Positions 11,113 through 62,568 of a DNA stretch of 64,000 nucleotides are shown here, piece after piece. The notes beneath the pieces are model-generated. The model did no database searches. It was not told where the DNA came from and saw nothing but the letters and a program-made list of their open reading frames with translations. A program made the translations under genes and the position numbers. Position 1 is the stretch's first letter. Each line of letters begins with the position of its first letter. Source of the DNA: Eledone cirrhosa. Lineage: Eukaryota. Location: positions 186,372,001-186,436,000 of the forward strand of contig OZ024742.1 of the NCBI GenBank assembly GCA_964016885.1. The letters run 5' to 3'.

Positions 11113-11300
11113 ATAACGAAGGAAATGTGGTACGGAACCAGATGGACCATAACGCACTCAATACTTAGGGTAGTAGAGTGGGTAATAGGAACGAGTAGGA
11201 CCCCGACGGCTGAGCTCAAGCCGTTTCGACGGCTAATTCAGTTCAGAATTAGCCGTCGAAAGGGCTTGAGCTCAGCCGTCGGGGTCCTACTCGTTCCTAT
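11113..11300. mobile_element. Fold-back mini-insertion of PLE pLTR family A in (TA)n
   Basis: ~125-nt long arm plus ~55-nt inverted short arm; inversion inside HHR stem II region; same family at 25061, 31478, 31710, 39220, 57818. Confidence 0.8.
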
Positions 11301-11350
11301 ATATATATATATATATATATATATATATATATATATATATATATATATAT

Positions 11351-12042
11351 ACAATATATAGAGTTATAAACTCAAACAGTCTTTTACAATTAAATAGCTC
11401 AAAGAAAGAAGTATTTTTGAGCCGTGAAATACAAGTTAATATAAATTAATATATGATAAACACTAATACAATCATACAAGTGTTTGTATTGCAAATGACC
11501 AAGTTAGCTAGATTGAAAAATACTAATTAGATTAATACAGTTTGCCTTTGAGTTTATAACTCTATATATTGTATTAACGAATCCTTTTGTTGAGCTAAAT
11601 TTTAGTCCCATAAAAACGGCTGTTATTTCTAGCAGCACGAGTATGGGGATAACTAGGAACTGAAAAACCATGTGCGTTAACACTTGCCTATCAGTCCTCC
11701 TAAGTATTTCGAGGTGAAACATACCAATTTTTCTGGATACCTGCCGATGAGCACAGTAAATGGAATCTTTCACTCTCTCACTTATCGTTGCGAAACTTAT
11801 TTGGGTTTTGAAATTTAAACCTATCTACGGAACAGGTTTGAGTTTTGAAATTTAAATTTGTCCAGGTATCACGGCTATTGCCAATATGGGTTTGTTTTTA
11901 TTGATTTATTATTTTAAATCGAGACAGGTAAACTGTATTAATCTAATTAGTATTTTTCAATCTAGCTAACTTGGTCATTTGCAATACAAACACTTGTATG
12001 ATTGTATTAGTGTTTATCATATATTAATTTATATTAACTTGT
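11351..12042 (+). mobile_element. Non-coding HHR-bearing fold-back element (retrozyme/PLE-like), ~550-nt circularly permuted unit
   Basis: Inverted arms 11431-11546 / 11926-12042; 11351-11376 is the reverse complement of 11547-11572; flanked by (TA)n. Confidence 0.75.
11736..11870 (+). ncRNA. Type I hammerhead ribozyme, U4C core, very long stem III
   Basis: gatacctg-CCGATGA-gca...tgc-GAAAC...GTC-caggtatc; 8-bp stem I. Confidence 0.75.
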
Positions 12043-12361
12043 GTATATATATATATATATATATATATATATATATATATATATATAGTGTAGGTAGTAC
12101 GGTGAAATACTGTTGCATTTCAAATCAAGCCCTCTATGCACAGGCAGAGTATATATGTAAATGAAACTTCCTCGTTTAAAAGAAAATATATATATATATA
12201 TTCTTTTACTCTTTTACCTGTTCCAGCCATCCGATATATATATATATATATGTATATATACTAGCTGGCTCGTCCGGCTACCATTGGCGTGTTCTACGGC
12301 ATCCATATATATATACATATATATATATATATATATATATATATATATATATATATATATA

Positions 12362-14251
12362 TAGCTGACGTACCTAGCTTCGCTTGGATAAACAGACGAT
12401 AAGCCGCCTGTGTAGTATAGTATTAATGTTGAAAATATATAGTATAGTATTACTGTTGAAAATATATAGTATAGTATAGTATTACTGTTGAAAATATATA
12501 GTATAGTATAGTATTACTGTTGAAAATATATAGTATAGTATTACTGTTGAAAATATATAGTATAGTATGACTGTTGAAAATATATAGTATAGTATATTAT
12601 TACTGTTGAAAATATATAGTATAGTATTACTGTTGAAAATATATAGTACAGTACAATATTACTCCTGAAAATATATAGTATAGTATTACTGTTGAAAATA
12701 TATAGTATAGTATGACTGTTGAAAATATATAGTATAGTATAGTATTACTGTTGAAAATATATAGTATAGTATTACTGTTGAAAATATATAGTATAGTATA
12801 GTATTACTGTTGAAAATATATAGTATATTATTACTGTTGAAAATATATAGTATAGTATTACTGTTGAAAATATATAGTATAGTATAGTATTACTGTTGAA
12901 AATATATAGTATATTATTACTGTTGAAAATATATAGTATAGTATTACTGTTGAAAATATATAGTACAGTATTACTGTTGAAAACATATAGTATAGTATTA
13001 CTGTTGAAAATATATGGTATAGTATTACTGTTGAAAATATATAGTATAGTATTACTGTTGAAAATATATAGTACAGTACAATATTACTCCTGAAAATATA
13101 TAGTATAGTATTACTGTTGAAAATATATAGTACAGTATTACTGTTGAAAATATATAGTATAGTATTACTGTTGAAAATATATAGTATAGTATTACTGTTA
13201 AAAATATATAGTATAGTATTACTGTTAAAGATATATAGTATAGTATCACTGTTGAAAATATATAGTATAGTATTACTGTTGAAAATATATAATATAGTAT
13301 AGTATTTATGTTAAAAATATATAGTATAGTATAGTATTACTGTTGAAAATATATAGTACAGTACATTATTACTGTTGAAAATATATAGTGTAGTACAGTA
13401 TTACTGTTGAAAATATATAGTATAGTATAGTATTACTGTTGAAAATATATACACGAATGTATAATTATATATATATAATTAATTAAAAGTTGGTTAGAAG
13501 CGAAGTCAATGTAGACAGGCAGACATACAGACAGATATTATAAGGGCGCGAGGTTATAGCTATGTATCTATCTAAAAAGATAGAGTAAGAAAGAAAGAGA
13601 AATGTCGTATTATAAATATTATATATAATAAATTACCAGTAATGTACTGGAATAATTGCTGGCCTTGTGCCCAAAGTAGAAACAATTATACTTCTTTTTT
13701 TATACAACTGTAAATAACTTGTTTATGTATGTATATATACGTATAAAATAATTCTGTAATAAAATGTACAAATTAAACTGTCTTTTATTTATGATACTAA
13801 CACTATATATATATATATATATATATATATATATATATATATATATATATATATATATATATATATTTATACATACTATATATATATATACACACACACT
13901 ATATATACATATATACACACACACACACACACACACAGATAGCGAATGGTTTTCATAACGCAGACAGCCAGGCATACAGAGACATATTATAAGGACGCGA
14001 CGTTATAGCTATGTGTCTATCTAAAAAGACAGACTAAGAAAGAGAGAGGAAGTGTTGACATTTGAACATTTTAAAGAAGTGAATATTTAAATAATATCTT
14101 TAATCTTTTAACAAAGTTTAGTAGACAAAAATACCCTCACTTTCTTATTTGGAAAAAGTTACATCTATGGTGCAAATTAGGTGCTGTTTGGTCCAGCCAT
14201 TTGGCGAAAAGTTTGTTACATACATACGGCCGTCAGCTTTATTAGTATAGA
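12362..14251 (-). mobile_element. Non-autonomous Helitron carrying a minisatellite
   Basis: Minus-strand 5' end atctatactaataaagctg; 3' end ...ccaagcgaagctaggtacgtcagcta (hairpin then decayed CTAG); internal ~90-bp duplication 13510-13600 / 13960-14050. Confidence 0.65.
12413..13451. repeat. 24/29-bp minisatellite (tagtatagtattactgttgaaaatata)
   Basis: About 40 tandem units visible; explains the repetitive LLLKIYSIV ORFs. Confidence 0.95.
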
Positions 14252-14859
14252 TATTACATTATGTGTGTGTGTGTGTGTGTGTGTGTGTGTGTGTGTGTGT
14301 GTGTGTGTGTGTGTGCGTACGTGTACGTGTGTACATCTGCAAGTGTGAGTGTCTATAGTTACCTATATCTTTATGAGTGTACGTGCACGAGTGTCTTTGT
14401 GGGAGTATATATTTGTGTGTGTATGTGTGTGTGTGTGTGTGTGTGTGTGTGTGTGTATGTGTGTACAACGAGTGTGTGTGTGTCTGTGTGTGTGGTGTGC
14501 GAACGTGTACGAGTGTACTTCTGCATTTGTGAGAGTGTATAGTTACTTATACTTTTATGTGTGTACGTGTACGAATATACTTGTGTTTGTGTGTACTTGT
14601 GCGAGTGTATGCGTGTGTGTGTGTGTATGTGTCTGTGTGTGTTTGTGTATGTGTGTGTGTGTGTGTTTGTATGTGTGTAATAACCTACATATTTATGTAC
14701 CTGTGTCAGTCAATGTACATGTATCTAGAGATATAGCTGGAGGGTGTAGGGCGCGGGTGGATTCATTCTAGATTGAGTTACAACAGATTCAAAAATAAAA
14801 CAACTAAGAACTACTACAACTACTACAACTACTACAACTTACACAACTAATACAACCAA

Positions 14860-60302: not shown

Positions 60303-60414
60303 TGCTCTGAGGAAACAGTGGTAACAGCATTTGATAATTGAGTTTTGCAAATAGTTATAAATTTGCACATAGCATAACTAGGCTGTATAACCATCGTGGA
60401 AACATTTGTAAGCA
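60303..60414 (+). ncRNA. Type I hammerhead ribozyme with ~85-nt stem II domain (family L)
   Basis: tgct-CTGAGGA-aacagtggt...accatcgtg-GAAA-catttg-TA-agca. Confidence 0.65.
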
Positions 60415-62033
60415 CAGAATAAATTACCTTTTTATGATGTCTACCTGTTATTATTCATTCTTTATATATATATATATATATATATATATATATATATATA
60501 TATATATATATATAAATCTTCCTGCTATATCAAGCGTTAACCTAATATATCCCTTCCATATACTGTACCCATTGTGTTGTTAGTTCTGTTTACCTTTTAC
60601 ATACATACATACATATATATATACAGTATATATATATATATATATATATATATATATATATATATATATATATATATATATACATATATATATATACATA
60701 TATGGTTCACACATGGAAATGTTTTCAAAGTGTTTTGTAGGAGACTAGCAGTTGGCCATATATGCCAGTCTCCCACCTACACGCCAGTTTGGCACCAGTG
60801 TTATTTCAGGCGAACGGTTCTAGCCTGGAGAGGAGACTGGAGCAACGTGAAACAAAGTGTCTTGCTCAAAGAAACAAAACACCGATCGGTGCAGGAATCG
60901 AACTCATGACCTTACGATCATGAACCTAACAACTATACCAACTATATATATATACACACACAGAGACACACACACACAGACACGCACACAGACACGCACA
61001 CACACACACACACACACACACACACACACACACACACACACACACACACACACACACACACACACACACACACACACACACACACACACACACACACACA
61101 CACACACACACACACACCACACACACACACACACATATATATATACACGTGTGTGAATTTGAGTGTCTCTATCGCATTTATAAATAACTGACAAGAATGT
61201 GAAAGAAACTGGAAGAAGAAGAGAGGAAAAAAAATGAACATCGAAATATTTCCCATAAAAAAATTGAAATATATTTAAATAGAGAATGTAAAAATATGAA
61301 TAAAAAGCAAACGAGAGAAATTCAATATAAAAAATAATAAAGCGATCATAAACATCAATATCAATTGAAAAAAGATCGAAGTTTTATAGAAATAAATATG
61401 GAATACTTGTAAAGTTTCAAAGATTTTATTTTGTAGTGATTATTTTTTTGAAATTAATATTGCTAGCTACTGGGAATAAATAAATAAATGTTGAACATAT
61501 TCGTTCTTTCATTCCGTTTATGGCATTAACCCATTACCTACCTCTCTATATTATCTCCCTTGTCCTTTTACATGTGATGATGTATTACATATTTTAATCT
61601 ATGTCTGTATGTATGTATGTATGTATGTATGTATGTATTTACCCCCCCTCTCCCTCTATCTATCTATCTATCTATCTATTTATCTAACCATCTATCTCTC
61701 TGTCTATCTATCTATCTTCCTATGTATGTATCTATCTATCTACCTCTCTCTCTATCTGTCTATCCAAACATCTATCTCTCTCTATCTTTATCTATCTATC
61801 CACACACACCTACCTGTTGTATTGTATATCTTGATGTTGCAGATGTGCAACGAAAGAACTTTGTTAGACTATGAATATGTGTTTATATCTATATTATATC
61901 TGTATTTTTGACCGTTGGTCATTCAATGGTAAATATTTAGGACCGAATGAATTAACTGTGGAGATATAAAAGATACAGAAGTGAAAACCAACCAAACCAT
62001 ACTAAATTTTAGTATGCTTTCATCAGATAACAT

Positions 62034-62212
62034 ATAATTGTTTCTACTTTAGGCACAAGGCCAGCAATTAACCAGTACATTACTGGTACTTTATTTTATC
62101 GACCCCGTAAGGATGAAAGGCAAAGTTAACCTCGGCGGAATTTGAACTCAGACTGTAAAGGGACGTAACTATGCTAGAAAGCATGGCGTCCGACCCTCTA
62201 CCGATATTGCCA
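62034..62212 (-). mobile_element. Nin/Deu-domain SINE
   Basis: Family consensus match. Confidence 0.85.
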
Positions 62213-62526
62213 AAAAATATAATATTTGATGTTAAGATATTGACAAACCTTAGCGTAAAACTTAATATTATAAGCCCGCTATCGGCAGTGAGATAAAAAT
62301 ACAAATTCACAAGCGATATAAGTGAACAAGGATACATCAAAACAGAAAAGGATCGTTATTATAACTCATTGTTTATACACACACACACACACACACACAC
62401 ACACACACACACACACACGCATATATATATATATATATATATATATATATATATATATATATATATATATATATTATAATGAAATGACAGGAGGCTGGAC
62501 TTGTGTAAATCCTTGAAAGGTTTATT

Positions 62527-62568
62527 ATGCTATGATCATTTCAATGACCTGGTGACATCATCAGGTAT
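62527..62568 (-). ncRNA. Decayed minimal hammerhead motif in a ~110-bp island between TA repeats
   Basis: Minus: atac-CTGATGA-tgtcaccaggtcatt-GAAA-tgatca-TA-gcat; palindromic stem III. Confidence 0.55.

What the first reader, a model, noticed from the sequence alone, without database searches (positions are those of the whole stretch)
11113..62568. Dense hammerhead 'zoo': about 18 motifs from roughly a dozen families in 64 kb
Seen: HHR motifs at 11736, 23419/23630, 25155, 26446, 27242, 27575, 34889, 39169, 41677, 42342/44291, 45839/46430/47021, 49215, 51477, 60303 and 62527, plus half motifs. They share only the catalytic core, and stems range from minimal to ~85-nt inserts. Established: PLE pLTRs carry HHRs. 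Inference: if typical, this genome holds a very large number of ribozyme motifs, and any host pre-mRNA crossing this region would meet self-cleaving motifs on both strands.
Basis: partly seen in the sequence, partly recalled or inferred. Interest (0 to 1): 0.7.

Follow-up and report, generated by a model that had tools for sequence, protein, structure and literature searches.

The report
Genome packed with Penelope hammerhead motifs
The motifs are real hammerhead-ribozyme folds on the ends of Penelope-type jumping genes, a known pairing, and this likely octopus genome carries an estimated 250,000 intact ones, but most are predicted to be slow or silent passengers rather than cutters of host RNA.

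Summary
All 19 listed sites are hammerhead-related, from 12 families. Nine are intact (0.12 expected in shuffles), seven are decayed, and three carry a core change shared across their family. They sit in the terminal repeats of Penelope-like elements (two families shown to be Hydra clade) and in a young 591-nt tandem retrozyme. The window is typical: 51 intact motifs in 590 kb of spaced genome samples (1.2 in shuffles) extrapolates to about 250,000 (170,000-360,000). The pairing is published, including for an octopus Hydra element; this scale was not in the papers searched. The idea that host pre-mRNA is cut gets little support. In 1.1 Mb of gene spans, 18 motifs are sense and 27 antisense, and ribozyme-less element ends are thinned almost as much as intact ones. 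Short copies of two abundant families end at a probable capped transcription start, not at the cut site, so their templates were uncut. One family starts inside its ribozyme; the other has a fixed core change. Cleavage is untested. This scan already reported the density and the start-site reading on other DNA of this genome.

The parts
23418..23462 (-). Intact type I hammerhead, family C (2-bp helix III); left arm of a head-to-head pair
   Evidence: family pairing 92%
23629..23673 (+). Intact type I hammerhead, family C; right arm
25155..25250 (-). Intact hammerhead, family A (U3-A8 core, 54-nt helix II region, 5-6-bp helix III), in the pLTR of a Hydra-clade element
39168..39266 (+). Intact hammerhead, family A, second subfamily
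26445..26485 (+). Intact hammerhead, family B (U3-A8, palindromic helix III), beside inverted RT fragments at 25869-26343 (-)
34888..34928 (+). Intact hammerhead, family B, downstream of RT and endonuclease fragments at 33135-34571 (+)
45642..47183 (+). Young non-coding 591-nt tandem (2.4 units, 45762-47183) with a 123-nt inverted arm (45642-45764), ends in (TA)n: non-LTR retrozyme-like element
45839..45926 (+). Intact hammerhead of the 591-nt unit, copy 1 (U3-A8, palindromic 10-nt helix III)
46430..46517 (+). Same hammerhead, copy 2
47021..47108 (+). Same hammerhead, copy 3
42229..44367 (-). 5'-truncated Hydra-clade element, family G: endonuclease end at 43323-43901 (-), 3' UTR, pLTR, and an inverted pLTR arm at 43893-44367 (+)
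42342..42392 (-). Family G hammerhead fold with family-fixed U4A core and a U-U pair at the base of helix II; helices I and III intact
44291..44341 (+). Family G hammerhead fold, inverted copy; helix I begins at the inferred transcription start
27575..27615 (+). Minimal hammerhead, family D; core and helix II intact, helix I damaged
41677..41715 (-). Family D copy with a core change and damaged helix II
27196..27345 (.). Decayed head-to-head pair; 3' halves at 27312 (+) and 27226 (-); an intact family member lies in L057
49215..49264 (+). Hammerhead with 8-bp helix I, intact core and damaged helix II; endonuclease fragment nearby at 48232-48630 (-)
51477..51510 (-). Decayed minimal hammerhead (core change, helix I lost), 1.2 kb downstream of a GIY-YIG fragment at 52747-53097 (-)
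60303..60415 (+). Family F hammerhead with about 85 nt in helix II, damaged here, intact in L044 and L145; follows an endonuclease fragment at 59311-59703 (+); inverted 3' half at 58978-59124
62527..62570 (-). Decayed hammerhead (shortened helix II); intact family members in L024 and L190
11736..11800 (+). Hammerhead relic (U4C in most close copies, no helix III) in a roughly 500-nt non-coding element with Penelope-like inverted ends (11431-12086)
11065..11344 (.). Family A head-to-head stub: two 3' halves of the hammerhead that meet inside helix II
31434..31907 (.). Two further family A head-to-head stubs
57794..58001 (.). Family A head-to-head stub
37957..38452 (-). Family A endonuclease-region fragment (85% protein identity to the intact frame in L232)

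Best explanation
These are type I hammerhead folds carried in the terminal repeats of many Penelope-like retrotransposon families and their non-coding hitch-hikers, scattered into TA repeats at an estimated one intact motif per 12 kb, and most are likely slow, conditional or disabled passengers that would seldom cut host RNA. Shown: the fold, the link to Penelope-like elements, Hydra-clade motifs in two intact 786- and 713-codon frames, 3' ends near (TA)n, and head-to-head arms with two alternative outer ends. Inferred: the pLTR holds an internal Pol II promoter that starts at the A of a TTAGT initiator-like motif at or inside the ribozyme. The element protein nicks (TA)n and starts reverse transcription at two internal sites. 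When it starts on the front copy of the repeat it runs off the capped 5' end and leaves short mirror stubs, made from RNA not cut at the hammerhead site. In family A the start lies inside helix II, so the front copy lacks half the core and only the read-through back copy could cut. In family G the start is the first base of helix I and the core carries a fixed U4A change. Both arrangements would keep the cap on the messenger. Intact ribozymes would then act only at some step of the element's own cycle (trimming read-through RNA, or releasing units of the 591-nt retrozyme), probably as dimers or with protein help.
For: Window 9 against 0.12 in shuffles. Genome sample 51 in 590 kb against 1.2, bootstrap 56-119 per Mb. 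35 sequence families among 111 hits. In one sampled group of 29 copies, 7 of 9 helix II pairs change on both sides and 0 of 500 shuffles match; family C is weaker (3 of 12 pairs, covariation score reached by 4 of 500). Intact motifs flank full frames 3.1-3.5 kb apart, and the frames carry DKT, RWR, CxCx5C, CxxC and CxH as described for Hydra. 47 of 51 sampled motifs have (TA)n within 300 nt downstream. Family A: 52,508 exact 3' halves against 3,787 exact 5' halves. 71 of 79 sampled copies stop within 33 nt before GAAA, mode at the A of TTAGT, and 1 of 106 alignments starts within 4 nt of the cut. A non-reference base precedes that A in 10,189 family A and 2,606 family G copies; it is G in 45 and 53 of the first 100 listed (hand count), as copying of a cap gives (PMC4859970). 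In an anole element the ribozyme needs the element protein, is dispensable for insertion, and uncut RNA is the main template (PMC11167929). Gene spans: sense 18, antisense 27, p=0.23. Mostly core-less family A ends and family G ends are thinned to 0.56 of the genome sample, close to the 0.47 for intact motifs.
Against: No cleavage or expression data were obtained. Intact motifs are about half as dense in gene spans (40 against 86 per Mb, p=2e-4 ignoring clustering; gene bootstrap 22-60), while a ribozyme-free repeat is not thinned (1.27). Single-strand insertions lean antisense (19 against 10, with 7 on both strands), and long-helix-III motifs are thinned most (7 against 19 per Mb, p=0.05). 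Some selection against active copies is therefore possible. Covariation means the fold is under selection in the source elements, so it does something there. Part of the G and C before the start could be copied from the opposite arm, and the C share in family A is as high as G (47 of 100). Families C and D show few short ends (3 of 15 and 7 of 19), so the start-site rule is shown for two families only. That U4A is damaging is recalled, not read (one search found no paper), and an axolotl hammerhead with a U-U base in helix II still cuts.
Confidence: 0.72

Rival explanations
1. A sizeable share of intact motifs cut host pre-mRNA during transcription; insertions that do harm are purged, and the rest tune splicing or mRNA yield of long genes.
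For: Density halved in 1.1 Mb of gene spans. Antisense lean 19:10 by insertion and stronger thinning of long-helix-III motifs. 18 sense-strand motifs remain in myosin and ion-channel gene spans. Fast intronic ribozymes block splicing and slow ones do not (Fong 2009 as cited in PMC10919898). Xenopus retrozymes avoid introns (preprint).
Against: The strand bias is not significant, and a ribozyme-free repeat shows a similar bias (101:145, p=0.006). Core-less ends are thinned nearly as much. 40 of 51 motifs have short helix III. Only 1 of 9 Xenopus retrozyme dimers cut in vitro.
Confidence: 0.15
2. The sharp 5' ends of short copies mark a stall or template switch of the reverse transcriptase at the ribozyme's stable helices, not a transcription start; the hammerhead fold shapes insertions as a roadblock.
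For: The ends fall in helix II (family A) or at helix I (family G), and most family A stubs are fold-backs (51 of 79).
Against: The ends fall at different structural places in the two families but at the same TTAGT sequence, and are often preceded by a G absent from the reference. Family A has equally stable helices 3' of this point that are copied through.
Confidence: 0.1
3. The hits are chance products of an AT-rich, palindrome-rich genome, or the window is an outlier of dead copies.
For: Ten of 19 listed sites fail the descriptor; Rfam finds none; a few singleton hits in the samples look accidental.
Against: Shuffles give about 1-2% of the observed count; reversed patterns give 0 genome matches; compensatory changes; same density in spaced samples.
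Confidence: 0.01

Closest known systems
Hydra clade of Penelope-like elements, including Hydra-1_Obim of Octopus bimaculoides (Craig et al. 2021, PMC8557442; passages, section 11 and supplement hits read)
   Same: C-terminal GIY-YIG, DKT, RWK-like, CxCx5C linker, (TA)n targeting, head-to-head arms with a tail, type I hammerhead in the pLTR; a hammerhead is listed for Hydra-1_Obim in File S2
   Different: [quoted passage not shown] Families A and G have motif sequences unlike the listed one (U3-A8 core with long helices; fixed U4A core).
Minimal and variant hammerheads of metazoan PLEs (Cervera and de la Pena 2014, PMC4209133; parts 1-2 of 4 read)
   Same: Type I, bulge before helix II, palindromic or minimal helix III, U3-A8 variant, many families per genome, mostly lone truncated copies, opposite-strand pairs 100-700 bp apart
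   Different: Reported counts are 2,000 plus 1,300 (Schistosoma), 4,000 (coelacanth) and 9,000 (Xenopus); here about 250,000 by a different descriptor. 13 of 51 sampled motifs have more than 40 nt in helix II.
Metazoan non-LTR retrozymes (Cervera and de la Pena 2020, PMC7229834, passages read; Li, Clavereau and Pollet 2026 preprint, parts 1-3 of 5 read)
   Same: The 591-nt element is non-coding, tandem, one type I hammerhead per unit, highly self-paired when folded as a circle
   Different: Longer than the 170-400-nt tested units (within the 51-972 bp range of the preprint), U3-A8 core, Penelope-type mirror arms with two fixed ends; circles not shown. Axolotl has 126,247 motifs in about 28 Gb, roughly 20 times sparser.
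Poseidon element of Anolis (Frangieh et al. 2024, PMC11167929; parts 1-2 of 4 read)
   Same: Two internal start sites for reverse transcription give the tail; uncut RNA is the template
   Different: There the evidence is in vitro for another clade; here it is the shape of genomic copies, and it adds a probable capped start at or inside the ribozyme.

Membership tests
Type I hammerhead ribozyme | Conserved core (C3-G8 or U3-A8, GAAA, UH) closed by helices I-III | tested here: met
   9 of 19 listed sites; not met at the other 10
Type I hammerhead ribozyme | Helices kept by compensatory change | tested here: met
   Strong in a 29-copy group whose only window member is a half motif at 62026; modest in family C
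Type I hammerhead ribozyme | Match to curated Rfam hammerhead models | tested here: not met
   No match at gathering score; the motifs differ from the models in helix lengths and core variant
Type I hammerhead ribozyme | Self-cleavage after UH | not testable with these tools
   No assay; no RNA run listed
Penelope-like element | Single frame with RT and C-terminal GIY-YIG-type endonuclease between pLTRs | tested here: met
   786- and 713-codon frames with YRDD RT motif, flanked by the motifs; Pfam gives no hit for either, so domains are assigned by motif and by eye against Hydra-1_Obim
Penelope-like element | Partial tandems, inverted 5'-truncated arm, two alternative 3' ends | tested here: met
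Hydra clade | DKT, RWK, CxCx5C linker, CxxC and CxH around the endonuclease end, (TA)n insertion | tested here: met
   Families A and G (RWR in place of RWK); family B fragments 42-54% identical to them
Hydra clade | Placement in an RT tree with reference clades | not tested
   No reference set was in hand; the other nine window families were not assigned a clade
Non-LTR retrozyme (591-nt unit) | Non-coding tandem units, each with a type I hammerhead | tested here: met
   No open frame of 100 codons; three identical motifs 591 nt apart; arrays at many loci
Non-LTR retrozyme (591-nt unit) | Accumulation as circular RNA | tested here: inconclusive
   Circular fold -175.6 against -131.6 +/- 6.2 kcal/mol in 20 shuffles; unit-length contigs in two runs of unknown type fit tandem DNA equally well

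The most novel reading that the evidence does not exclude
Penelope-like elements place their capped transcription start on top of their hammerhead, and the most successful families protect the messenger by starting inside the ribozyme or by disabling its core. The ribozyme is thus a conditional cutter of read-through RNA only. This lets an animal genome hold a quarter of a million motifs, the densest reported, with a monomer-competent minority still cutting long neuronal and muscle pre-mRNAs.
Probability: 0.3. Interest if true: 0.7.

Novelty: new member of a known kind. Interest (0 to 1): 0.42.

Why it matters
The role of hammerheads in Penelope-like elements is an open question. This genome offers dozens of families and a natural contrast: one abundant family whose RNA likely starts inside an intact ribozyme, and another that multiplied to over 15,000 copies with an altered core. 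Both can be tested by cap mapping and cleavage assays. The count, about twice the largest found in the papers read and about 20 times denser, also shows that standard RNA-family scans miss these motifs. The claim of wide host pre-mRNA cutting is not borne out so far.

Tried and rejected
Rfam scans gave only microRNA-like hairpin noise. A first, cruder descriptor found 8 sites and was replaced. No RNA holder was listed for the 591-nt element. Contigs of four runs of unknown type were laid on it: X1 and X5 each hold one piece of 621 and 620 letters (one unit plus about 30), which a circular RNA or tandem DNA would both give; whether those runs are RNA stayed open, so this is not used as evidence. 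Pfam did not recognise the full element proteins and only weakly one GIY-YIG fragment. No host exon was found among 97 of 313 unmasked frames of the window and 50 kb of flank; only Helitron pieces scored. No DNA similarity was found between the 591-nt unit and families A or G, so its helper is unidentified. Other CTGANGA sites at 2629, 21276 and 55510 had no homologue in the 590-kb sample and no fold and were dropped. Lunse, Weinberg and Breaker 2017 could not be read; I recall that it reports about 150,000 PLE-linked variants across all genomes, and it may cover octopus. Paper searches for hammerhead with octopus or cephalopod found no genome-scale count; the giant squid paper lists 235 Rfam hammerhead hits. 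A search for U4A variants found nothing. Supplements of the 2014 and 2020 papers and of the preprint were not seen and may hold mollusc counts.
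Full report
Setting. The window is G000:C3:186372001-186436000 in a 3.0-Gb assembly, 36% GC and rich in microsatellites. The host is probably an octopus. This is inferred: a muscle myosin exon is closest to PDB 3i5f (recalled as squid), and the closest described element is Hydra-1_Obim.

Observation. A type I descriptor with energy filters finds 9 intact motifs, all at listed positions, against 0.12 in 25 local shuffles and none in reversed or complemented sequence. The other ten listed sites are not intact but are hammerhead-derived. 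Five (27242, 27575, 41677, 60303, 62527) have descriptor-passing relatives in sampled DNA. 49215 keeps an 8-bp helix I and the core but has a damaged helix II. 51477 has a core change and no helix I. 42342 and 44291 are one insertion of a family whose core is CAGAAGA in 100 of 100 listed matches of 15,732. 11736 has CCGANGA in 11 of 15 aligned copies and no helix III. The 19 sites make 12 families. Rfam reports none.

Is the window typical? Fifty-nine 10-kb tiles taken at set spacing on 24 large contigs gave 51 hits in 590 kb, against 1.2 in ten shuffles; 40 against 0.3 at score 12 or more. The bootstrap range is 56-119 per Mb, which extrapolates to about 250,000 (170,000-360,000), or 200,000 at the stricter score. 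The far parts of C2-C4 were not sampled. Exact genome counts for single families agree in scale: 3,787 for the family A 5' core and 7,501 for the 3' core of the 591-nt family, with 0 for the reversed patterns. All 111 hits in hand cluster into 35 families, 20 of them singletons. Published counts that I read are 9,000 for Xenopus and 4,000 for coelacanth, about 5,000 for mussel and 126,247 for axolotl (genome 28 Gb). These used other descriptors, so the comparison is rough.

What carries them. Intact family A motifs flank a 786-codon frame 3.1 kb apart, and family G motifs flank a 713-codon frame 3.3 kb apart; the two proteins are 53% identical. Both have the DKT, RWR, CxCx5C, CxxC and CxH marks given for the Hydra clade, and a hammerhead is already listed for Hydra-1_Obim. 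Related RT or endonuclease fragments lie beside the window motifs at 26446, 34889, 49215 and 60303, and a GIY-YIG fragment lies upstream of 51477. A protein search with the family G endonuclease met 70,530 candidate places, and the 150 scored were 95-100% identical. 47 of 51 sampled motifs have (TA)n within 300 nt downstream. The three motifs at 45839-47021 belong to a non-coding 591-nt tandem with 99-100% identical arrays on many contigs (799 candidate places, 40 scored), two alternative ends at unit positions 240 and about 405, and a stable circular fold. It meets the sequence definition of a non-LTR retrozyme; circles are not shown.

The fold is selected. In 29 related copies gathered by sequence, 97% of cells pair and 7 of 9 helix II pairs change on both sides; 0 of 500 shuffles reach this, though relatedness inflates such counts. 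Family C is weaker.

How copies were made. Family A has 52,508 exact 3' halves, 14 times its 5' halves. Of 79 sampled copies, 8 are whole and 71 stop within 33 nt before GAAA, most often at the A of TTAGT inside helix II; 51 are fold-backs. Only 1 of 106 alignments begins at the predicted cut. In family G, 22 of 38 copies stop within 24 nt of the anchor, 4 of them exactly at the A of TTAGT that opens helix I. Genome-wide, a base other than the reference T precedes that A in 10,189 and 2,606 copies; among the first 100 listed it is G in 45 and 53, above the 26% expected from composition. An extra G is the known trace of a copied cap in LINE-1 and SVA (passages), and Penelope has a TATA-less internal promoter in its pLTR (PMC2377424, passages). 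I read these ends as a capped start, which makes the templates uncut RNA. This matches the anole element, where the ribozyme needs protein and is not needed for insertion. Caveats: junction bases can come from the opposite arm, C is as common as G in family A, and families C and D show few short ends. That TTAGT is an initiator is recalled.

Host RNA. I fetched 1,112,100 bases between exon matches of 17 myosin and 6 ion-channel gene spans (strand from the matches, no annotation). They hold 45 intact motifs, 18 sense and 27 antisense (p=0.23); by insertion, 10 sense, 19 antisense and 7 both. Density is 40 per Mb, about half the genome sample. Family A ends, most without a full core, and family G ends are thinned to 0.56, while a ribozyme-free repeat is not thinned and has its own strand bias. 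So Penelope-type insertions are scarcer in these genes whether or not the ribozyme is whole. A small effect of active copies is not excluded: long-helix-III motifs drop from 19 to 7 per Mb (p=0.05). Forty of 51 sampled motifs have short or palindromic helix III, the type reported to need dimers and to cut poorly, and slow intronic ribozymes are tolerated (passages citing Fong 2009). No host exon was found in this window or 50 kb of flank, so it may be intergenic.

Novelty. Hammerheads in pLTRs, many families per genome, U3-A8 cores and retrozymes are all published. Not found in the papers searched: a count of this size for a cephalopod, and a capped start at or inside the ribozyme read from genomic copies. 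One key paper (Lunse et al. 2017) could not be read. Earlier notes of this scan on the same genome report the density and the start-site reading; I reached both from my own calls first, and the notes are not independent support. One note led me to Hydra-1_Obim, which I checked.

Verdict. The extrapolation is right. The implied cutting of host pre-mRNA is unproven and weakly disfavoured. It is a known system at an unusual scale, with one testable mechanistic lead.

Noticed in passing
   Followed up: partly
window 18756-18940 and about 15 more copies: A roughly 190-nt ribozyme-free repeat, 175 per Mb in the genome sample, with a strand bias in gene spans (101:145, p=0.006); used as control.
   Followed up: partly
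window 31908-32687 (-), 35726-37966 (-), 55974-56372 (-): Decayed non-LTR retrotransposon fragments (endonuclease hit at 37646-37966); the family A endonuclease piece at 37957-38452 abuts one of them.
   Followed up: no
L146:8563-9813 (-), about 10 kb before the window: Helitron helicase-like frames (PF14214).
   Followed up: no
L145:5385-7607 (-): A 741-codon open frame with no Pfam hit, near a family F hammerhead; probably another Penelope-like element.
   Followed up: no
window 42480-42746 and 43937-44203: Family G pLTR holds two 128-nt repeats 80% alike upstream of the hammerhead.
   Followed up: no
L197:3625 and 3943; L165:157 and 338: Two different hammerhead families lie on one strand 180-320 nt apart at two loci: nested insertions or one element with two ribozymes.
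   Followed up: no
window 12410-13451: Tandem repeat of about 30-nt-scale AT-rich units without a hammerhead.
   Followed up: no
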